A stretch of 64,000 bases of DNA from Escherichia coli (GTDB lineage: Bacteria; Pseudomonadota; Gammaproteobacteria; Enterobacterales; Enterobacteriaceae), in assembly GCF_011045215.1 (NCBI RefSeq), contig NZ_CP049201.1; one strand, written 5' to 3'. The notes under the pieces are model-generated. The model was given only the letters and a program-made list of their open reading frames with translations. It searched no databases and had not been told where the DNA came from. The translations under genes and the position numbers were made by a program. Every line of letters starts with the position of its first letter. Positions within the stretch are counted from its first letter, which is position 1. Below are positions 19,272 through 37,843 of the stretch, piece by piece.

Positions 19272-21698
19272 TTATATTTTTTCGATCTCGACCAGATTAG
19301 TGTGCTGCGGGTTTCCCTTCGCCAGTGGTGAAGGGCGCAGAGTGGTTAGCGTATTCACACAGCCTCCATGGTCGATTTTATCGCCAGACATATCGGCCTC
19401 GTGCCAGGCTCCCTGGCCCATAGCGCTAACTCCAGGGAGAATACGTGGTGTCACTTTGGCTGGTAGCCGAACTTCGCCACGATGGTTAAACACCCGCACC
19501 ATATCGCCGTTGGCAATCCCACGTTTCTGCGCATCTATAGGGTTGATCCACACCTCCTGACGGCAGGCAGCCTTCAGGAGATCAATATTGCCGTAGGTCG
19601 AGTGAGTACGGGATTTGTAATGGAAACCAAACAGTTGCAGTGGGAAGGTTCTACGTTCAGGGGAGTCCCAGCCTTCAAAGGTTGAGGCATAAACTGGCAG
19701 TGGGCTTATCACTTCATCTTTTTCCAGTTCCCAGGTACGGGCAATTTCCGCCAGCCTGCTGGAATAAATTTCAATCTTACCGGAAGGCGTTTTAAGTGGA
19801 TTTGCCTCGGGGTCGTCACGAAATGCTTTGTAGGCGACAAAATGACCATTGGGATCTTTACGCTTATAGATACCCATTTTTTTCAGTTCGTCGTAAGACG
19901 GTAACGCCGGATCTTTGGCAAGCATTTTGGCGTACAGATGTTGTAACCATTGTTCCTGCGTGCGACCTTCTGTGAACTTTTGATAGACGTCAGGTCCAAG
20001 ACGTTTCGCGACTTCACTCAGGATCCAGTAAATCGGTTTGCGTTCGAATTTTTCGCTGGTGACAGGCTGGAGGAAAATGAGATATCCCATGTTACCGGCG
20101 TAGTCGTTAGGAATAATATCTTCCTGCTCAACGGTCATCAGGTCTGGCAGCAGAATGTCGGCATATTTTGCCGATGAGGTCATAAAGTTTTCGATGACCA
20201 CAATCATTTCGCATTTCGATTCGTCTTGCAGAATTTCATGCGTTTTGTTGATGTCAGAATGCTGATTAACGAGGGTATTTCCCGCGTAGTTCCAGATGAA
20301 CTTAATGGGCACATCCAGTTTATCTTTGCCCCGGACGCCGTCGCGGATTGCCGTCATTTGCGGGCCATGATCGATAGCATCTGTCCAGCTGAAGCAGGAG
20401 ATTGACGTTTTGACCGGATTGTCCAGCACCGGCAGGCGTTCTATGGTAATGGTATAGGTCGATTCACGCGCGCCACTATTTCCGCCGCTGATGCCGACAT
20501 TGCCCGTCAGAATAGGCAACATAGCAATAGCGCGTGCGGTCAGCTCGCCGTTTGCCTGGCGTTGTGGCCCCCAGCCCTGGCAGATATAAGCGGGTTTTGC
20601 TGTGCCAATTTCACGCGCCAGTTTGATGATACGGTCCACCGGGATACCGGTAATTTGCGAAGCCCACTGCGGCGTTTTCGCTGTTTTATCGTCACCTTCA
20701 CCAAGAATATAGGCTTTATAGTGACCATTTTTGGGGGCATCTGCGGGTAAGGTTTTTTCGTCATAGCCGACGCAGTATTTATCGAGAAAAGGTTGATCAA
20801 CGAGATTTTCGTTAATCAATACCCAGGCAATACCCGCAACCAGCGCGGCATCGGTGCCCGGGCGAATAGGAAGCCATTCATCTTCACGACCAGCAGCCGT
20901 ATCGGTATATCGCGGATCGATAACAATCATTTTTGCGTTCGATTTTTCGCGCGCTTTTTCAAGAAGATAAGTGATGCCACCGCCGCTCATGCGGGTTTCT
21001 GCCGGGTTGTTACCAAACATCACGACCAGCTTGCTGTTTTCAATATCCGTGGTGCTGTTGCCATCATTACTGCCGTAGGTGTAGGGCATGGCACAGGAAA
21101 TTTGCGCGGTGCTGTAGGAGCCATACTGATTGAGTGAACCGCCGTAGCAGTTCATCAGGCGTTTGACCGCCGAGGCTGATGGCGAAGAGCGGGTCATATT
21201 GCCGCCAACGATCCCCGAAGAGTACTGAATATATACAGCCTCATTGCCATATTGTTCGACGGTTTTCTTCAGGCTACTGGCGATAGTATCCAGGGCTTCA
21301 TCCCAGCTAATCCGTTCGAATTTGCCTTCGCCGCGTTTGCCCGCGCGTTTCATTGGGTAATTCAAGCGATCGGGATGATTAATACGCCGGCGGATGGAGC
21401 GACCGCGCAAACAGGCGCGTACCTGATGGTTGCCGTACTCATCGCTGCCGGTATTGTCAGTTTCCACCCAGGTCACTTCATTATCTTTAACATGTAGACG
21501 AAGTGCACAGCGGCTACCACAGTTGACGGAACAGGCACCCCAGACCACTTTTTCGCTGGCCTGTTGTACCGCTGCCGCTGCACTGCGCAGGGTGAACGGT
21601 AAAGAAAAACCGCCTGCAGCCAGGGCCAGAGAACCTATCGCGGTAGATTTAACGAGTGTTCTGCGGCTGATGCCCACCATTTGTTCATTTTTGGACAT
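19272..21698 (-). CDS. ynfE: Tat-exported molybdopterin oxidoreductase (selenate reductase) catalytic subunit YnfE
   Basis: 808 aa with twin-arginine signal (SRRTLVK); tandem paralogue of ynfF. Confidence 0.9.
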   Translation of the reverse strand: MSKNEQMVGISRRTLVKSTAIGSLALAAGGFSLPFTLRSAAAAVQQASEKVVWGACSVNCGSRCALRLHVKDNEVTWVETDNTGSDEYGNHQVRACLRGRSIRRRINHPDRLNYPMKRAGKRGEGKFERISWDEALDTIASSLKKTVEQYGNEAVYIQYSSGIVGGNMTRSSPSASAVKRLMNCYGGSLNQYGSYSTAQISCAMPYTYGSNDGNSTTDIENSKLVVMFGNNPAETRMSGGGITYLLEKAREKSNAKMIVIDPRYTDTAAGREDEWLPIRPGTDAALVAGIAWVLINENLVDQPFLDKYCVGYDEKTLPADAPKNGHYKAYILGEGDDKTAKTPQWASQITGIPVDRIIKLAREIGTAKPAYICQGWGPQRQANGELTARAIAMLPILTGNVGISGGNSGARESTYTITIERLPVLDNPVKTSISCFSWTDAIDHGPQMTAIRDGVRGKDKLDVPIKFIWNYAGNTLVNQHSDINKTHEILQDESKCEMIVVIENFMTSSAKYADILLPDLMTVEQEDIIPNDYAGNMGYLIFLQPVTSEKFERKPIYWILSEVAKRLGPDVYQKFTEGRTQEQWLQHLYAKMLAKDPALPSYDELKKMGIYKRKDPNGHFVAYKAFRDDPEANPLKTPSGKIEIYSSRLAEIARTWELEKDEVISPLPVYASTFEGWDSPERRTFPLQLFGFHYKSRTHSTYGNIDLLKAACRQEVWINPIDAQKRGIANGDMVRVFNHRGEVRLPAKVTPRILPGVSAMGQGAWHEADMSGDKIDHGGCVNTLTTLRPSPLAKGNPQHTNLVEIEKI

Positions 21699-32125: not shown

Positions 32126-32701
32126 TTAAGGATTCATTAAGCAATGTCGCAACCACCAATAAATCCGCTTAAGAACATGAAAATTGATTACTGGTATAAA
32201 GCGCTTACAGTTGTTGGCGCTGCGTTGTTTGTCTTTAATGGAACGTCTTTTTTTGACAGATATCCCGTTGTTCCATTGGGTTTTTTGTCCTCCGGCATCT
32301 TTTTTATTGGTTTGGGGGAGTGGATTAATCACCCTCTCAAAGTGAGATTTATTGGTCCTGGGGTTTGGACTCGTGGATATAATCGTTCTTCGTGCGCACT
32401 CGGCATCATCTTCGACATACTTGGTTGTTTCCTGATTGTTACAGGAGTCGTCAAGTTCTTCTGATGTAAAACCGCAAATGGGGCACGTAACGGGAATTTT
32501 GAAAAGCGTTTCTCCGGGTTCCAGAACAAAATTTTCTGCGGTCTGATTTTGCTTCTCATATTTGTGCTCCGCGTCATTGTGAGAGCACATTCTTATTCTG
32601 AGTGCCTGTTTAAACTCACTGAAGCTGAGAGCTTCTTCGCCTTCGGCAAGGCCTTCGAAGTATTCTTCGTAAGCCTTTTCCATGATTGTGTCGAAATCCA
32701 T
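32126..32701 (-). CDS. hypothetical protein in the ydfB/ydfC position, possible zinc-ribbon
   Basis: 191-aa ORF translationally coupled to ydfA (AGGTGA RBS, 1-nt gap); CPICGF...C motif; C-terminal third is low-complexity and overlaps an antisense 106-aa ORF, so the true extent is uncertain. Confidence 0.5.
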   Translation of the reverse strand: MDFDTIMEKAYEEYFEGLAEGEEALSFSEFKQALRIRMCSHNDAEHKYEKQNQTAENFVLEPGETLFKIPVTCPICGFTSEELDDSCNNQETTKYVEDDAECARRTIISTSPNPRTNKSHFERVINPLPQTNKKDAGGQKTQWNNGISVKKRRSIKDKQRSANNCKRFIPVINFHVLKRIYWWLRHCLMNP

Positions 32702-32702
32702 A

Positions 32703-32858
32703 TCACTCACCTGAGTTTCTTTCCAGCCAGCGACGGGCACCATTTTCGGTTTTAAACGTTTTGCTTTTGGTATACGTCATCGCGGTGAACGTGCCGTCCT
32801 GGTTGGGGAACACGCCACATACCAGAGATTCGCTGTTGCCAAGATCGATAGTATCCAT
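32703..32858 (-). CDS. ydfA: YdfA (51-aa DicA-operon protein)
   Basis: 51 aa from internal ATG with GAGG RBS; first gene downstream of dicA. Confidence 0.75.
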   Translation of the reverse strand: MDTIDLGNSESLVCGVFPNQDGTFTAMTYTKSKTFKTENGARRWLERNSGE

Positions 32859-33026
32859 GCTGACCTCATTTCCCCTTAACGCCTGGGTAGCGGAACTGTT
32901 TGCTGAGAACACCGTGCGGTGTCTTGATGGAAATTAATTTAGAATAATCTAACATGATAGGCAAGTGTTTTTTGTTAGGTTAGTCTAACAAAAAGAGTGA
33001 GCGCAACTAATCACTTGAAAAGAATG

Positions 33027-33434
33027 TTATTTTATTGATTTATTTTTACGCGCTTTAAGCATTTCTTCGAAGAGTTTGTTGAAGTTTTCTACTCTTGCGC
33101 GCATTTCAGACAGCAAGGCTTCCTGCTCGGAAGATGGAAGAGCATCGAATAATTCGATCAATTCTTTGTGGTTGGGAGTTAGCTCTGTTTCCACATGAAG
33201 TTCTTGTGCAGGCACTGGTGCCTTGTCTTCATCACCAAACATTAGCCATGTAGGTGAGCACTTCAGAGCATCCGCTAAAGCAAACAATCGTTTTCCGACT
33301 GGCTGGGTTTCGTCTCTTTCCCATTGTGAAATTGTGACGTGAGCAACTCCAGCGAGGCGCGCAGCTTCTCGTTGTGTTAAGCGTAATTCTTTTCGTCGCG
33401 CCAGAACTCGCTGGCCTAGGGTTCTTGTATCCAT
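33027..33434 (-). CDS. dicA: HTH XRE-family repressor DicA
   Basis: 135 aa with N-terminal HTH (LTQREAARLAGVAHVTISQWERDETQP); divergent from dicC. Confidence 0.88.
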   Translation of the reverse strand: MDTRTLGQRVLARRKELRLTQREAARLAGVAHVTISQWERDETQPVGKRLFALADALKCSPTWLMFGDEDKAPVPAQELHVETELTPNHKELIELFDALPSSEQEALLSEMRARVENFNKLFEEMLKARKNKSIK

Positions 33435-33511
33435 AGTTAGGTAATTCTAATTTTTCTTGACTTAGGTATCCCGCGCACAATAATGTTAGAAAAGTCTAAC
33501 AAGAGGGGGCT

Positions 33512-33742
33512 TTGATGCTTAAAGTTGACGCAATTACTTTTTTTGGCAGCAAAACAAAGCTTGCCAATGCCGCAGGAGTGAGACTGGCAAGTGTTGCTGC
33601 TTGGGGGATACTGGTTCCTGAAGGTCGCGCGATGCGTCTACAGGAGGCATCTGGCGGGGAGCTTCAGTATGATCCCAAAGTTTATGACGAATATCGTAAG
33701 ACGAAGCGGACGGGGCGGTTGAACAATGAAAATCACTCCTGA
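33512..33742 (+). CDS. dicC: Cro-like regulator DicC
   Basis: 76 aa transcribed divergently from dicA across a short operator-containing gap. Confidence 0.85.
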   Translation: MMLKVDAITFFGSKTKLANAAGVRLASVAAWGILVPEGRAMRLQEASGGELQYDPKVYDEYRKTKRTGRLNNENHS

Positions 33743-34247
33743 ACAGGCTCGTGAGGCTCTGGATGCCTGGATATGTCGACCAGGAATGACACAGGAGCAG
33801 GCGACGATATTAATCACTGAAGCATTCTGGGCTTTGAAAGAGCGCCCGAACATCGATGTTCAGCGTGTCACATATGAAGGTGGCGCGGTTGATCAGCGAG
33901 CGCTTAGCGTTAATCGAGTGAAGATATTCGAACGCTGGAAGGCTATCGACACCAGGGATAAGCGTGAAAAGTTCACAGCGCTAGTGCCTGCAATTATGGA
34001 GGCTATCCGGATTAGTGATTTCAGGTTGTATCGTGAGATCAGTGATGGAAAAAGTATTACGTACATGATCGCCGGGTTAAATAAAGAATATGGCGATGTG
34101 GTGGAATCTGGACTGCTTTTTGCAGATCCTGCCGTTGTAGATCGTGAAACTGACGAACTTATAGAAAAAGCAATTGCTTTCAAGCTTGCGTATCGACAGC
34201 AATACCAACAAAAAGCTGGATGGAATTATGAGTCTTCTTTTTGCTGA
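33726..34247 (+). CDS. hypothetical early-region protein (YdaT-like position)
   Basis: 173-aa ORF overlapping the dicC stop; no recognisable catalytic motif. Confidence 0.65.
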   Translation: MKITPEQAREALDAWICRPGMTQEQATILITEAFWALKERPNIDVQRVTYEGGAVDQRALSVNRVKIFERWKAIDTRDKREKFTALVPAIMEAIRISDFRLYREISDGKSITYMIAGLNKEYGDVVESGLLFADPAVVDRETDELIEKAIAFKLAYRQQYQQKAGWNYESSFC

Positions 34248-35193
34248 ACGCCCACTGGTTATAAACACGCAGCTGGCAATGAAAATCGGCTTAAACGAAG
34301 CCATTGTTTTGCAACAACTGCACTACTGGTTGAGAGATACCAACTCCGGTATGGAATGTGATGGTGTTCGCTGGATTTATAACACAACGGAACAATGGCT
34401 GGAACAGTTCCCATTCTGGTCAGAGTCAACGTTAAAACGCGCGTTTGCAAGTCTGAAAACGCTGGGGCTTTTGCGTTGTGAAAAGCTCAATAAATCAAAG
34501 CGCGATATGACCAATTTCTACACGATCAACTATGGGAGCGAGCTTTTAGATGGTGGCAAATTGAACGAATCCATCGGTTCAAAATGCGCCGCTCCATCAG
34601 GTCAAAATGACACGATGGAAGAGGTCAAAATGAAACGCTCCATTGGTTCAAAACGACCCAATGTCATCGGGTCAAAATGGCCTGATGATCTTACAGAGAA
34701 TACAACAGAGATTACTACAGAGAATAAAAACACTTTTCGTCCGGAAGCTTCGCAACCGGACCCGCAGACGACTGAACAGGATTTTTTAACCCGGAACCCC
34801 GACGCGGTTGTGTTTAGTGTGAAAAAACGCCAGTGGGGTAGCAGGGAGGATTTGGCGTGTGCGCAGTGGATTTGGGGGCGGATCGTGAACCTTTACGAAC
34901 AGGCTGCCAGCGACGATGGAGAGATCATGCGACCAAAAGAGCCTAACTGGACAGCCTGGGCCAATGACGTGCGCACAATGCGGATGCTGGATGGCAGAAG
35001 CCACAGACAAATTTGCGAAATGTTTGGTCGGGTACAGCGGGATCCATTCTGGGTAAAAAACATCATGAGCCCGTCAAAACTCCGCGAAAAATGGGACGAA
35101 CTGGTCATCCGCCTGGGACGTTCACCTGTACAGCGTTGTGTGAATCATATTTCTGAACCGGATACAGAAATTCCGCCTGGTTTCAGAGGATAA
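34228..35193 (+). CDS. replication initiator, lambda O-like
   Basis: 321 aa with N-terminal DNA-binding-type region; gene contains five regularly spaced iterons, as in lambda O/ori. Confidence 0.75.
   Translation: MSLLFAERPLVINTQLAMKIGLNEAIVLQQLHYWLRDTNSGMECDGVRWIYNTTEQWLEQFPFWSESTLKRAFASLKTLGLLRCEKLNKSKRDMTNFYTINYGSELLDGGKLNESIGSKCAAPSGQNDTMEEVKMKRSIGSKRPNVIGSKWPDDLTENTTEITTENKNTFRPEASQPDPQTTEQDFLTRNPDAVVFSVKKRQWGSREDLACAQWIWGRIVNLYEQAASDDGEIMRPKEPNWTAWANDVRTMRMLDGRSHRQICEMFGRVQRDPFWVKNIMSPSKLREKWDELVIRLGRSPVQRCVNHISEPDTEIPPGFRG
34575..34680. repeat. phage replication origin iterons (5 direct repeats of GGTCAAAATG-like motif, about 23-bp period)
   Basis: copies at about 34576, 34600, 34623, 34645 and 34669 inside the O-like gene, producing repeated IGSK peptide motifs. 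Confidence 0.75.
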
Positions 35194-35233
35194 GTTTTGA
35201 TTTCAGGTCATGAGGTAATTTTAAGGGGGACTT

Positions 35234-35635
35234 GTGGCAAAAGTTTTTACACAAGAAGAGCGGGAAAAAATTAAAGGGCAGGTGGTGGAACTCGTGCGCC
35301 AGAGCGGTCGTGAGACGTTACGGCAACTGGAAGCTAAAACAGGTGCGACTAGATATCTGATGAGCGTTCTTGCCAGAGAGCTGGTAGCCAGTGGCGATGT
35401 ATACAACTCCGGCTACGGGTTATTCCCGTCTGAACAGGCGCGTAAGGACTGGCAAAACGCCCGCAAAAAACTATCGAGGGCAAAGGTGAAGAAAACAGCT
35501 GTGGTTGATCCGGACCTTATCTGGTCGTTACCTGATGGAGAAATACGTCGCTACGACAGTCGCCTAAACATAATCTGTCGCGAGTGCCGGATGAGTGAAG
35601 TTATGCAGCGCATACTGGCATTTTATCAGGGATAA
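35234..35635 (+). CDS. hypothetical phage protein
   Basis: 133-aa ORF with GTG start preceded by AAGGGGGA RBS; follows the O-like gene. Confidence 0.65.
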   Translation: MAKVFTQEEREKIKGQVVELVRQSGRETLRQLEAKTGATRYLMSVLARELVASGDVYNSGYGLFPSEQARKDWQNARKKLSRAKVKKTAVVDPDLIWSLPDGEIRRYDSRLNIICRECRMSEVMQRILAFYQG

Positions 35636-35831
35636 TGTTAGGTATTTTAGACGTTACTAGATTAAAAAGCATTAGTTCAGGAGTGAATTGACATTCTCAT
35701 TTTTCATGGCACAGGGTAGATCTGGCGTGGTTGTCCGCTTTGTGCCAGAAGCGGACATAGCAGGTGCCAGATGCATTTGTTATTCTTCATTGAATTGAGC
35801 AGTATCCTTAACAGGAACTCTGAATACATAA

Positions 35832-36470
35832 ATGAAGATGAAAAACATGTCTGAAGTGTTGACCCAAGAAAAGCTTATTTTTGTTGCCCAGAGACTAAAG
35901 GCCCTCGCGCAGTCAGGCCTGACCTATTCAAAAGACGTCTTTGACAAGGAACGCTATGAAGCCTTGCGTGAAATTGCCGCTGGACTGCTGAGTTCGCAGT
36001 TTGATATTAGCCGCAATGATTTGTTTCATGTATCGGAAACGGGTTACGCGACGCCCAAAACAGATGTGCGTGCGTTTATCCTGCGTAATAATCGTATTCT
36101 GATGGTGAAAGAGGCTGCAGATGGATTATGGAGTCTTCCTGGCGGATGGGCAGATGTTGGAGATACACCTTCTGAAGCTGTGCGTCGAGAGGTCGAAGAA
36201 GAAACCGGATTAAAAGTCAGAGTGACTAAACTATTGGGAGTTTGGGATCGTAATCTTCACGGCCATCCGCCTTTACCCTGGCATGTTTACAAGCTGATTT
36301 TTCTCTGTGAAGAAGTAGGTGGCAGCCTGTCAATCAGCCATGAGTCACTCGATGCTGATTTTTTTGATGTCAACGACCTGCCTGAATTGTCGCTTTCAAG
36401 AATTGTGCCTGAGCAGATTGCTGTCAGCCTGAGAGTAGCGAAAGGTGATGAAAAAACATGGTTTGATTAA
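35832..36470 (+). CDS. Nudix hydrolase with N-terminal extension domain
   Basis: 212 aa; Nudix-box core GGWADVGDTPSEAVRREVEEETGL. Confidence 0.85.
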   Translation: MKMKNMSEVLTQEKLIFVAQRLKALAQSGLTYSKDVFDKERYEALREIAAGLLSSQFDISRNDLFHVSETGYATPKTDVRAFILRNNRILMVKEAADGLWSLPGGWADVGDTPSEAVRREVEEETGLKVRVTKLLGVWDRNLHGHPPLPWHVYKLIFLCEEVGGSLSISHESLDADFFDVNDLPELSLSRIVPEQIAVSLRVAKGDEKTWFD

Positions 36471-36493
36471 CTTTCTTCTGCAACCATTAAGGA

Positions 36494-37138
36494 ATGGCAA
36501 TGATATTCAACGCTAAGGGTTTTTTATTCGATATGGACGGTACGCTGGTTGATTCAACAGCCGTAGTGGAAAACGTCTGGAGAGATTTTTGTGCAGAATA
36601 CGGTCTTGATTCTCAGGCTGTGATTGCTTACGCACACGGGCGGCAAACGATTGATACACTAACGCATTTTATTGGTGCAGGTGAGAAAACCAATAAAATC
36701 GCGGCCTCACTCGAAGAGGTTGAAATCAACACGACAGAAGGCGTTACTGAAGTAAAAGGGGCCGCTGCACTCTTATCAAAACTGCCACCGGATAGCTGGG
36801 CACTTGTCACTTCTGCAGGCAGAATGCTTGCCGAAAACAGGATGAAAGCGGCTAATCTCCCCTTACCCAGAGTAATGGTGTGTGCAGAAGATGTAATGAC
36901 GGGAAAACCAAGTCCCGAGGGTTACATCAAAGCAGCTTTGGCTTTGGGCCTTGAGCCTGGTGAATGCGTGGTATTTGAGGATGCATCTGCGGGTATAAAA
37001 GCAGGGCTGGCAAGTGGAGCTTCGGTAATAGCTGTTCAGCCTGACGCTCTGGGATCATCTGAAGCCCATGCCGTCAGCGAACTGTCTGACATTATGGTCA
37101 AGATTTCCGGAGAACGTTTCAATATCATCTGTGGTTAA
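36494..37138 (+). CDS. HAD-superfamily phosphatase (beta-phosphoglucomutase-like subfamily)
   Basis: 214 aa; motif I FDMDGTLVDS, motif III lysine region and downstream acidic motif (EDASAG); 24 bp after the Nudix gene. Confidence 0.85.
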   Translation: MAMIFNAKGFLFDMDGTLVDSTAVVENVWRDFCAEYGLDSQAVIAYAHGRQTIDTLTHFIGAGEKTNKIAASLEEVEINTTEGVTEVKGAAALLSKLPPDSWALVTSAGRMLAENRMKAANLPLPRVMVCAEDVMTGKPSPEGYIKAALALGLEPGECVVFEDASAGIKAGLASGASVIAVQPDALGSSEAHAVSELSDIMVKISGERFNIICG

Positions 37139-37386
37139 TCACGTTACACAATACGCATCAATGGACGCTGAGTAGTTCGCGAGTTTTAAACTTCCAACGT
37201 CCGCTTTTCGCTCAAAGCGGACTAGAAGGTTAGCTTGTATCGGACTTTGCGTATTAAATGACTAGTGGTTGAGCCCCATTTCCACAGAAAAAATCAGAGA
37301 AACTATACCCAATAGTTGTATTGAATCACTGACGAGACAGCCTCATATTCATCAGGACTGGTGTACGTCCAATACAGGAGGTTGTG

Positions 37387-37476: not shown

Positions 37477-37687
37477 TTTCATATTGGCGAGGTAACGGTA
37501 GTTAAGTAGAATGGCTGCGGGTGCTTGAGGCTATCTGCCTCGGGCATGAACACCAACGGCAGATAGAGAAAAGCCCCAGTTAACATTACGCGTCCTGCAA
37601 GACGCTTAACATTAATCTGAGGCCAATTTCATGCTAGACACATGTAGGTTAGCCTCTTACGTGCCGAAAGGCAAGGAGAAGCAGGCT

Positions 37688-37843
37688 ATGAAGCAGCAAA
37701 AGGCGATGTTAATCGCCCTGATCGTCATCTGTTTAACCGTCATAGTGACGGCACTGGTAACGAGGAAAGACCTCTGCGAGGTACGAATCCGAACCGGCCA
37801 GACGGAGGTCGCTGTCTTCACAGCTTACGAACCTGAGGAGTAA
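37688..37843 (+). CDS. hok: Hok/Gef-family type I toxin
   Basis: 51 aa MKQQKAMLIALIVICLTVIVTALVTRKDLCEVRIRTGQTEVAVFTAYEPEE, typical Hok; in-frame upstream ATG at 37631 could act as a mok-like leader. Confidence 0.88.
   Translation: MKQQKAMLIALIVICLTVIVTALVTRKDLCEVRIRTGQTEVAVFTAYEPEE

What the first reader, a model, noticed from the sequence alone, without database searches (positions are those of the whole stretch)
34575..34680. Replication origin iterons embedded in the O-like initiator gene
Five copies of a GGTCAAAATG-like motif recur at about 23-bp spacing (34576, 34600, 34623, 34645, 34669), giving repeated IGSK peptide motifs in the encoded protein. This mirrors the lambda arrangement where ori iterons lie inside gene O, and pins down the prophage origin.
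Basis: seen in the sequence. Interest (0 to 1): 0.45.

Follow-up and report, generated by a model that had tools for sequence, protein, structure and literature searches.

The report
Prophage replication origin inside initiator gene
Five regularly spaced 23-bp repeats followed by an A+T-rich stretch, all inside the replication-initiator gene of an E. coli lambda-like prophage, are almost certainly the phage's replication origin: a textbook arrangement, here in an initiator family that has been little studied.

Summary
GKTCAAAAYG occurs five times at 34577, 34600, 34623, 34646 and 34670 (spacing 23, 23, 23, 24). The whole 64-kb window has six matches against 0.94 expected.

The copies are cores of contiguous 23-bp near-palindromic units (consensus CATCGGGTCAAAATGACCCGATG). 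They lie in the middle of a 321-aa O-like initiator gene (34228-35193), at the same gene-relative position as lambda's annotated iterons. Three ACAGAGAnTAC 12-mers follow, in a 28% GC tract.

The units sit in three reading frames (IGSK appears only three times). Third-codon-position diversity among relatives falls from about 0.28 to 0.04 in the cores. The encoded segment is predicted to be a disordered linker. The repeats are therefore conserved as DNA.

The same cassette (N-domain, 23-bp-period repeats, CAGAGAnTAC repeats) recurs in phages of Klebsiella, Erwinia, Pseudomonas, Bacillus and Staphylococcus, joined to many different C-domains.

This is a new member of a known kind. Side leads: no helicase-loader gene follows, and the protein ends in a DnaT-like tail.

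The parts
34228..35193 (+). O-like replication initiator gene (321 aa plus stop). The ATG at 34228 is the start annotated in phages and RefSeq.
   Evidence: ORF. PHROG 391 E 2e-92. Annotated 'replication initiation O-like protein', 'DNA replication protein O' or 'phage replication protein O' in HannyBb, PhiR42_1 and E. coli RefSeq.
34228..34557 (+). Codes for the N-terminal domain (aa 1-110), a predicted winged-helix DNA-binding domain of RepA_N / DnaD-NTD type; the presumed iteron binder.
34549..34571 (+). Degenerate 'iteron 0' (GATGGTGGCAAATTGAACGAATC). A good copy sits at this position in the 69%-identity clade, in a Klebsiella phage and in mEp460_4F5.
34572..34594 (+). Iteron 1: CATCGGTTCAAAATGCGCCGCTC
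34595..34617 (+). Iteron 2: CATCAGGTCAAAATGACACGATG (8 of 11 palindromic pairs)
34618..34640 (+). Iteron 3: GAAGAGGTCAAAATGAAACGCTC
34641..34663 (+). Iteron 4: CATTGGTTCAAAACGACCCAATG (8 of 11 palindromic pairs)
34665..34687 (+). Iteron 5: CATCGGGTCAAAATGGCCTGATG (8 of 11 palindromic pairs)
34688..34737 (+). A+T-rich tract (GC 0.28) with three 12-mers ACAGAGAnTAC at 34693-34728; the presumed DNA-unwinding element.
   Evidence: 97.5% identical to the matching stretch of Stx-phage O genes. Lowest diversity in the gene.
34558..34761 (+). Codes for aa 111-178, a predicted disordered linker between the two domains. The origin DNA lies here.
   Evidence: AF2 pLDDT 24-42
34774..35118 (+). Codes for the C-terminal helical domain (aa 183-297), homologous to the lambda O C-terminal domain.
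   Evidence: BLASTP 34% identity, E 1e-27 over aa 147-294. pLDDT 70-91.
35128..35190 (+). C-terminal 21-aa tail, VQRCVNHISEPDTEIPPGFRG, resembling the last 21 residues of host DnaT.
33457..33484 (+). pR-like promoter match (TTGACT-16-AATAAT) upstream of cro. Rightward transcription from here would pass through the origin.
   Evidence: consensus match only
33027..33434 (-). cI-like repressor (HTH_3)
33512..33742 (+). Cro-like regulator (P22_Cro)
33726..34247 (+). YdaT / cII-like gene; overlaps the initiator start by 20 nt.
35234..35635 (+). DUF977 / Ren-like gene directly downstream, in the slot where lambda has P.

Best explanation
This is the replication origin of a lambdoid prophage, embedded in the linker-coding middle of its own initiator gene.

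Proposed mechanism, by analogy with lambda O at ori-lambda and pSK41 Rep at its Rep boxes:
1. Transcription from the pR-like promoter produces the O-like protein.
2. Dimers of its N-terminal winged-helix domain bind the five (perhaps six) 23-bp near-palindromic iterons at 34572-34687. Each iteron has a central A-tract, TCAAAAYG.
3. The protein-DNA array bends or wraps the DNA. With negative supercoiling, it opens the adjacent 28%-GC tract that carries the three ACAGAGAnTAC repeats (34688-34737).
4. The lambda-O-like C-terminal domain, together with a DnaT-like C-terminal tail, brings the host DnaB helicase to the opened DNA. No phage loader gene is present, so recruitment probably goes through host DnaC or restart-primosome proteins.

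Shown here: the anatomy, DNA-level conservation of the repeats, the domain homologies, and recurrence of the cassette in other phages. Inferred: binding, unwinding and helicase loading.
For: - Repeat statistics and regular spacing.
- Dyad symmetry of the units, with a perfectly palindromic 10+3+10 consensus.
- Same position in the gene as lambda's annotated iterons. Those also share a central TCAAAAYG. P22's annotated rep_origin in gene 18 has the same layout.
- The units fall in three reading frames.
- Among 56 unique relatives, third-codon-position diversity is 0.27 (N-domain) and 0.30 (C-domain). It is 0.043 in the iteron cores, 0.088 in the spacers and 0.023 in the 12-mer tract. The normal excess at third positions is lost, and 0 of 20000 random site sets are as low.
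- The segment encoded by the repeats is predicted disordered, so protein function constrains it little.
- The C-domain is homologous to lambda O's.
- Phages with a homologous N-domain carry 3-7 repeats at 22-24-bp period at the same gene position, with cores that are identical, similar or different: S. aureus fPfSau02 AGGTCAAAATG x3, Bacillus TP21-L TGTCAAAATG x5, Erwinia PEp14 GGGCAAATTGCCC, BcepMigl TTCGCCGAAT.
- Of 106 loci picked only by the downstream CAGAGAnTAC motif, 89 have at least 3 repeats at 20-25-nt period just upstream. Control segments of the same genes give 7 of 106 and 1 of 104. The modal spacing is 23 nt.
- The same gene, 96-98% identical, is in isolated phages HannyBb, mEp460_ev081 and PhiR42_1.
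- Lambda literature: the origin lies in the middle of O and consists of iterons plus an AT-rich tract; two iterons plus the AT-rich tract suffice for unwinding (PMC7466680).
Against: - There is no experimental evidence for binding or firing in this family. None was found in the literature searches.
- The N-domain has no Pfam family and no detectable sequence similarity to lambda O's N-domain.
- No P-, DnaC- or DnaB-like gene follows, so the helicase-loading step is unexplained.
- The fold assignment rests on a predicted model (pTM 0.40). Foldseek E-values were weak, best 0.049.
- The low diversity could partly reflect recent recombinational spread of the segment.
- Iterons 1 and 3 are poor palindromes (6 and 5 of 11 pairs).
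Confidence: 0.85

Rival explanations
1. The repeats are real initiator-binding sites, but their role is autoregulation, copy control or exclusion (titration or handcuffing) rather than the start of replication. Alternatively, they are a relic origin that no longer fires in this prophage.
For: Iteron arrays in plasmids also serve copy control (general knowledge). Ectopic lambda ori copies inhibit phage growth (titles of PMC3349717 and PMC4488673). No loader gene is present. Natural in-frame deletion variants that lack four iterons exist in E. coli (P0016-P0021).
Against: The adjacent conserved A+T-rich repeat tract and the lambda-like position fit an origin. The gene and array are intact and nearly identical in phages isolated as viable particles. 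No second iteron cluster that could serve as the true origin exists in the window.
Confidence: 0.07
2. The repeats arose by tandem duplication of a peptide-coding segment (the IGSK motif). They persist for the protein's sake, or neutrally in a disordered linker, with no role as DNA.
For: IGSK occurs three times. The segment is a predicted disordered linker that would tolerate duplications.
Against: A 23-nt period is not a multiple of 3, so the copies are read in three frames. Synonymous sites are the most conserved in the gene, and the codon-position pattern is lost. Each unit is a DNA palindrome. The DNA core is conserved in S. aureus and Bacillus phages while the encoded peptide differs.
Confidence: 0.03
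3. The region is mainly a recombination junction. Conserved linker DNA between exchangeable N- and C-terminal modules is kept because it promotes modular shuffling, not because it is bound or unwound.
For: The CAGAGAnTAC tract is shared at 97.5% identity with otherwise different Stx-phage O genes. It joins two N-domain clusters to more than 20 C-domain clusters. The 12-mer copy number varies from 3 to 5.
Against: This does not explain the palindromic 23-bp periodic array upstream, or why its core differs among N-domain homologs while the periodic architecture is retained. It also does not explain retention of the motif in high-GC Pseudomonas and Erwinia phages and in Firmicute phages, where recent exchange with E. 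coli phages is implausible. The two roles are not exclusive.
Confidence: 0.05

Closest known systems
Bacteriophage lambda ori-lambda within gene O (also Stx phages 933W and P27)
   Same: The iteron array lies in the middle of the initiator gene at the same gene-relative position (lambda nt 349-433, here 345-460). Spacing is 20-24 bp. The iterons are imperfect inverted repeats with a central TCAAAAYG. An A+T-rich purine-skewed tract follows directly. The C-terminal domain is homologous (34% identity, E 1e-27). The gene order is cI / cro / cII-like / O.
   Different: The N-terminal DNA-binding domain is unrelated at sequence level, with no Pfam Phage_rep_O hit. The units are 23 bp and contiguous, not 18-19 bp with spacers. 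There are five or six copies, not four. No P gene follows; DUF977 occupies that slot. A DnaT-like C-terminal tail is present that lambda O lacks.
pSK41 Rep and other RepA_N plasmid initiators (structures 4PTA, 4PQL, 5KBJ)
   Different: There is no sequence membership in Pfam RepA_N. This is a phage, not a plasmid. The CTD is of lambda-O type, not DnaD-like. The match rests on a predicted model.
Salmonella phage P22 gene 18 origin (annotated rep_origin 32840-32984)
   Same: Direct repeats of TCGGTAAAAC type lie inside the initiator gene. They are followed by A-rich 12-14-mer repeats, ACAAAAGACAATA.
   Different: There is no detectable protein similarity to gene 18. P22 carries its own DnaB-like helicase gene, gene 12.
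'DnaD-like' initiators of S. aureus and Bacillus temperate phages (fPfSau02, phiIPLA88, TP21-L, vB_BhaS-171)
   Same: The N-domain is homologous (46-52% identity). The iteron cores (A/T)GGTCAAAATG are nearly identical, at 22-23-bp period and at the same gene position. CAGAGAnTAC repeats follow.
   Different: The C-terminal domains differ. A phage loader and/or DnaB-type helicase gene follows. There are three to five iterons. The downstream repeat has a 10-11-nt period in some. To my knowledge, and in the literature searched, these origins are also uncharacterised.
E. coli DnaT (primosomal protein I)
   Same: The last 21 residues are similar: VNHISEPDTEIPPGFRG here, VNTVSEPDSQIPPGFRG in DnaT.
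   Different: Nothing else matches. The NCBIfam DnaT score is 16 bits against a cutoff of 201. The 'Primosomal protein I' label in the mEp460 records reflects only this tail.

Membership tests
Lambda-type origin embedded in an O-type initiator gene | Array of at least 4 direct repeats of about 18-23 bp, each an imperfect inverted repeat, spaced about two helical turns apart | tested here: met
   Five units at spacings 23, 23, 23, 24. Each has 5-8 of 11 palindromic pairs against a background of 2.76; the consensus is perfectly palindromic.
Lambda-type origin embedded in an O-type initiator gene | Array lies in the middle of the initiator gene, between the N- and C-terminal domains | tested here: met
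   Gene-relative nt 345-460, compared with lambda's annotated iterons at nt 349-433. The array encodes aa 111-178, predicted disordered.
Lambda-type origin embedded in an O-type initiator gene | A+T-rich tract immediately promoter-distal to the iterons | tested here: met
   34688-34737 has GC 0.28 against 0.48 for the gene. It contains three 12-mer repeats.
Lambda-type origin embedded in an O-type initiator gene | Initiator C-terminal domain homologous to the lambda O C-terminal domain | tested here: met
   BLASTP 34% identity over 148 aa, E 1e-27.
Lambda-type origin embedded in an O-type initiator gene | Initiator N-terminal domain homologous to the lambda O iteron-binding domain | tested here: not met
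   No Pfam family at E <= 0.01. BLASTP finds no N-terminal alignment to lambda O or P22 gp18.
Lambda-type origin embedded in an O-type initiator gene | Partner helicase-loader or helicase gene (P, DnaC-like or DnaB-like) directly downstream | tested here: not met
   The next gene is DUF977 / Ren-like. No such gene is annotated anywhere in the near-identical prophage of strain SCU-125. Some close relatives do carry a DnaC-like gene.
Lambda-type origin embedded in an O-type initiator gene | Initiator binds the iterons; replication starts here; mutations in the array are cis-acting | not testable with these tools
   Needs EMSA or footprinting, an ori-plasmid assay, and marker-frequency or 2D-gel analysis.
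PHROG 391 'replication initiation O-like' | Full-length profile match | tested here: met
   E 2.1e-92, 310.9 bits; profile positions 11-298 of 298.
RepA_N / DnaD-NTD-type winged-helix initiators with the origin inside their own gene | Winged-helix N-terminal domain of this fold | tested here: inconclusive
RepA_N / DnaD-NTD-type winged-helix initiators with the origin inside their own gene | Sequence membership in Pfam RepA_N (PF06970) | tested here: not met
   No Pfam hit.
DnaT (primosomal protein I), as annotated in the mEp460 records | Full-length match to the DnaT equivalog model | tested here: not met
   NF002770 scores 16.2 bits against a cutoff of 201. Only residues 320-339 of the long ORF match. 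PDB DnaT chains match only aa 301-321.

The most novel reading that the evidence does not exclude
The N-domain, the 23-bp iterons and the CAGAGAnTAC repeats form one portable origin cassette that is conserved from Proteobacteria phages to Firmicutes phages. On this reading:
- The CAGAGAnTAC repeats (10-12-nt period) are not just A+T-rich DNA. They are a sequence-specific unwinding or loading element read by the initiator, analogous to DnaA-trios at oriC.
- The interchangeable C-terminal domain sets the route to the helicase.
- In initiators with no loader gene, like this one, a short DnaT-like tail (P-x-G-F-R-G) recruits host restart-primosome or DnaC-DnaB machinery in place of a phage loader.
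Probability: 0.25. Interest if true: 0.6.

Novelty: new member of a known kind. Interest (0 to 1): 0.3.

Why it matters
It places the origin of a common family of E. coli lambdoid prophages and phages (mEp460, HannyBb, PhiR42_1 type) at base-pair resolution. Many databases label this initiator 'hypothetical protein', and Pfam does not cover it.

The practical uses are modest. The result allows better annotation, gives a defined origin and initiator pair for vectors or incompatibility tests, and helps judge whether a prophage can still replicate; natural variants with four iterons deleted exist.

The comparative results may interest phage-replication specialists:
- The same cassette occurs across Gram-negative and Gram-positive phages.
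- A specific short repeat is conserved where lambda has its AT-rich tract.
- A DnaT-like tail is found on initiators that mostly lack a neighbouring loader gene.
These offer a testable handle on how an initiator with no loader gene recruits DnaB.

The core finding itself, iterons inside an O-like gene, is textbook.

Tried and rejected
- Pfam scan of the initiator: no family.
- NCBIfam: only a sub-threshold DnaT tail hit.
- PDB sequence search: only the DnaT tail.
- Literature searches (iterons / lambdoid / protein O; mEp460; iterons / DnaD / Staphylococcus phage; replication modules / DnaT) found the lambda and Stx background and the pSK41 review. Nothing covered this family's origin.
- Searching papers for the sequence strings GGTCAAAATG, ACAGAGAATAC, CAGAGACTAC and TENTTEITTENK returned only unrelated primer matches.
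- The 2026 preprimosome paper was read for a function of DnaT's extreme C-terminus. None is stated.
- DnaA boxes TTWTNCACA: 5 in the window against 6.1 expected. The one at 34818-34826 has no statistical support.
- Other iteron-like sites in the window: only scattered chance-level hits with 2-3 mismatches.
- Rfam scan of 32500-36500: nothing.
- Promoter scan: only the pR-like site. No promoter-like site lies inside the array, and the terminator-like hits are weak.
- I considered that the 12-bp length difference in the closest E. coli genomes lay in the 12-mer tract. It lies in the ydaT-like gene instead (510 vs 522 nt).

Full report
**1. The observation**

GKTCAAAAYG occurs at 34577, 34600, 34623, 34646 and 34670 on the + strand. 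The only other match in the 64-kb window is at 20406 on the other strand. Dinucleotide-preserving shuffles give 0.94 +/- 0.94 matches, and none of 100 reaches 6. The repeat finder reports five copies in register with spacings 23, 23, 23, 24. Tandem Repeats Finder reports a period-23 array.

The 10-mers are the cores of contiguous 23-bp units spanning 34572-34687. Their consensus is CATCGGGTCAAAATGACCCGATG, two perfectly complementary 10-nt arms around AAA. Individual units have 5-8 of 11 self-complementary pairs. Window 23-mers average 2.76 +/- 1.47, and only 0.18% reach 8. A degenerate sixth unit sits at 34549-34571.

Immediately downstream, 34688-34737 has GC 0.28 against 0.48 for the gene. 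It contains three tandem 12-mers ACAGAGAnTAC at 34693-34728.

One detail needs correcting. IGSK is encoded by only three of the five copies. The 23-nt period rotates the frame, so the other two copies read SGQN and EVKM.

**2. Context**

The repeats lie in an ORF whose annotated form is 34228-35193 (321 aa). It has no Pfam family. It matches PHROG 391 'replication initiation O-like' at E 2e-92.

Its neighbours are:
- a cI-like repressor (33027-33434, minus strand);
- a P22_Cro-like gene (33512-33742), preceded by a TTGACT-16-AATAAT promoter match (33457-33484);
- a YdaT / cII-like gene (33726-34247);
- downstream, a DUF977 / Ren-like gene (35234-35635).

The window is an E. coli chromosome. 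In the 99.5%-identical strain SCU-125, the region is a lambdoid prophage beside rspB. It carries integrase, excisionase, exonuclease, kil, Q, lysis, terminase, head and tail genes, but no P-, DnaC- or DnaB-like gene. Its tape-measure gene is annotated as frameshifted there.

The initiator gene is 96-98% identical in the sequenced phages PhiR42_1, mEp460_ev081 and HannyBb. There it is annotated as protein O, O-like, or 'Primosomal protein I'.

**3. The repeats are conserved as DNA, not as peptide**

Three independent lines support this.

(a) The copies occupy all three reading frames.

(b) I compared 56 unique homologous genes of 68-100% protein identity from IMG/VR. Pairwise diversity at third codon positions is 0.27 in the N-domain and 0.30 in the C-domain. 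It is 0.043 in the iteron cores, 0.088 in the inter-core spacers and 0.023 in the 12-mer tract. Within the array the usual excess at third positions disappears (0.043 against 0.049 at first and second positions). None of 20000 random sets of third positions is as conserved. Relatedness and recombination could lower overall diversity, but they would not remove the codon-position pattern.

(c) An AlphaFold2 model built on a 26-sequence alignment gives confident N- and C-terminal domains (pLDDT 72-91). It gives pLDDT 24-42 for aa 111-178, which is exactly the segment encoded by the iterons and 12-mers. The protein therefore constrains this DNA very little.

**4. The protein**

aa 147-294 align to lambda O aa 135-270 at 34% identity, E 1e-27. 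This is lambda O's C-terminal domain. From my own knowledge, that domain contacts P.

The N-terminal 110 aa show no sequence similarity to lambda O or to P22 gp18. The model has a helix-helix / strand / helix-helix / wing pattern.

- Many winged-helix regulators follow.
- Foldseek ranks the same RepA domain first, but weakly (4pql, E 0.049).

pSK41 Rep is described as a 120-aa winged-HTH NTD that binds four Rep boxes located centrally within its own gene. It has a central linker encoded by the ori, and a host-specific CTD (PMC5703833). That is the same three-part architecture.

**5. Comparison with known origins**

The lambda RefSeq record annotates its four iterons at gene-relative nt 349-433 of O, with spacings 20, 24, 23. 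The array here occupies nt 345-460. Lambda's iterons (TCCCTCAAAACGAGGGA) share the central TCAAAAYG. They are followed by ACACAAAAGACACTATTACAAAAGAAAAAAGA.

P22's annotated rep_origin inside gene 18 shows TCGGTAAAAC repeats followed by ACAAAAGACAATA repeats.

The lambda literature states that the origin lies in the middle of O and consists of iterons plus an AT-rich tract. [quoted passage not shown] Two iterons plus the AT-rich tract suffice for unwinding (PMC7466680).

**6. Relatives elsewhere**

tblastn with the N-domain finds 139 phage records. They include phages of Klebsiella, Erwinia, Pseudomonas, Vibrio, Staphylococcus, Bacillus, Listeria, Lactobacillus, Flavobacterium and Burkholderia.

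At the same gene position (nt about 315-450), many of these carry 3-7 repeats at 22-24-bp period:
- S. aureus fPfSau02: AGGTCAAAATG x3. Its N-domain is 46% identical, and the nucleotide match to the E. coli array is 85%.
- Bacillus TP21-L: TGTCAAAATGAATCAA x5.
- Klebsiella Kp4882-3 and mEp460_4F5: six to seven copies.
- Erwinia PEp14 (GAGGGCAAATTGCCCT), SopranoGao (GGGGCAAAATGCMCC) and BcepMigl (TTCGCCGAAT): different cores at the same period.

I then ran the reverse test. Viral contigs were selected only by the downstream motif CAGAGAnTAC-N1-2-CAGAGAnTAC.
- Nearly all 122 hits lie 380-640 nt into ORFs of 250-350 aa.
- Their N-terminal parts fall into two clusters (101 and 20 members). Their C-terminal parts fall into more than 20 clusters.
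- 89 of 106 unique loci have at least 3 repeats at 20-25-nt period in the 185 nt upstream. Control segments of the same genes give 7 of 106 and 1 of 104. Spacing peaks sharply at 23 nt (221 of 305).

The window's feature is therefore one instance of a widespread cassette made of an N-domain, 23-bp-period iterons and short CAGAGAnTAC repeats, fused to interchangeable C-domains.

**7. The CAGAGAnTAC tract**

This tract is the least variable part of the gene. It is shared at 97.5% identity with otherwise different Stx-phage O genes. Among relatives it varies in copy number from 3 to 5.

In an N-domain-selected set that is unbiased for the motif, 12 of 18 genes have at least 2 CAGA[G/T]A copies just after the iteron region, spaced 10-13 nt apart in 11 genes and 24 nt in one (BcepMigl). 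These include 54-60% GC Pseudomonas and Erwinia phage genes and AT-rich Lactobacillus and Flavobacterium phage genes.

Most copies (281 of 295) are read as T-E-x-T. In 14 of 106 loci, however, the period is 10, 11 or 13 nt, so the DNA motif persists while the peptide changes (for example QRLPETT, TREYTENT). I read the tract as the counterpart of lambda's AT-rich unwinding region, possibly with sequence-specific content. A constraint on the peptide is not excluded.

**8. Mechanism and its weak step**

Binding, bending and unwinding are inferred by analogy with lambda O and pSK41 Rep. Helicase recruitment is the open step, because no loader or helicase gene is present.

The protein ends in VNHISEPDTEIPPGFRG. 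This is close to the last residues of E. coli DnaT, VNTVSEPDSQIPPGFRG. The same P-x-G-F-R-[GS] tail occurs on 34 of 110 unique initiators from the motif-selected set and on two different C-domain clusters.

Initiators with the tail are followed by an IstB/DnaC-like or DnaB-like gene in 4 of 34 cases. Initiators without it are so followed in 34 of 76 cases (Fisher p = 0.0009, not corrected for phylogeny). This suggests the tail substitutes for a phage loader by docking onto host machinery. Against a strict either/or, three close relatives of this very gene have both the tail and a DnaC-like neighbour. The recent preprimosome structure paper assigns no role to DnaT's extreme C-terminus.

**9. 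Verdict**

The interpretation (an origin with iterons inside an O-like initiator gene) is supported by anatomy, DNA-level conservation, domain homology and recurrence across phages. There is no experimental evidence.

It is a new member of a known kind: a lambda-type and RepA_N-type gene-embedded origin. Its N-domain family lacks a Pfam model. Interest is modest. The leads worth following are the cassette shared across bacterial phyla, the conserved CAGAGAnTAC element, and the DnaT-like tail.

Noticed in passing
window 35128-35190: The initiator ends in a 21-aa tail (VQRCVNHISEPDTEIPPGFRG) close to the C-terminus of host DnaT. The P-x-G-F-R-[GS] tail sits on two different C-domain clusters. 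It is less often followed by a DnaC/DnaB-like gene (4 of 34 with the tail, 34 of 76 without; p = 0.0009, uncorrected). Its partner is unknown.
   Followed up: partly
window 34693-34728; loci L103-L222: The ACAGAGAnTAC repeat (10-12-nt period) after the iterons is conserved across two N-domain clusters and more than 20 C-domain clusters. It occurs in phages of Gram-negative and Gram-positive hosts, including high-GC genomes. It may be more than generic AT-rich DNA.
   Followed up: partly
L003 1492-1567 (S. aureus phage fPfSau02); L013 (Bacillus phage TP21-L): The iteron cores are nearly identical to the E. coli ones (AGGTCAAAATG / TGTCAAAATG), in phages of Firmicutes whose initiator N-domains are only 46-52% identical.
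   Followed up: yes
proteins P0016-P0021 (290 aa): Natural E. coli variants lack exactly 31 aa (93 bp = 23+23+23+24). This is an in-frame recombination between iterons 1 and 5 that leaves one iteron. It resembles, from memory, the classical lambda ori-minus in-frame deletions, and these are probably replication-dead prophages.
   Followed up: partly
L054, L061, L081, L082 (five 12-mers); L083 (four): The 12-mer copy number is polymorphic (3, 4 or 5) among close relatives, which suggests slippage in the tract.
   Followed up: no
window 35832-37138: NUDIX hydrolase and HAD hydrolase genes sit between the replication genes and hokD. The phages HannyBb and PhiR42_1 have other genes at this position. 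Only 14 of 5426 complete E. coli genomes cover at least 80% of 33000-37200. These are likely cargo ('moron') genes.
   Followed up: no
window 37631-37843: A Hok-family toxin ORF (MKQQKAMLIALIVICLTVIVTALVTRKDLCEVRIRTGQTEVAVFTAYEPEE), annotated hokD in the near-identical strain. The prophage sits beside rspB, which from memory is the Qin prophage position in K-12.
   Followed up: no
proteins P0001, P0003, P0004 (448 aa); mEp460 records: Annotation problems. Some records fuse the YdaT-like and O-like ORFs into one 448-aa protein. Others call the initiator 'Primosomal protein I' or 'hypothetical protein'. In four E. coli genomes with 98.5-98.6% identity the gene is labelled hypothetical.
   Followed up: no
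L034 (IMG/VR contig 2531839441_000013): One relative has an in-frame stop codon in the initiator gene while all five iterons and the 12-mers are intact.
   Followed up: no
window 34818-34826 (- strand) and 35245-35253 (+ strand): Two DnaA-box-like 9-mers (TTTTTCACA, TTTTACACA) lie within 100-500 bp downstream of the origin. The window-wide count is at chance level (5 against 6.1 expected).
   Followed up: yes
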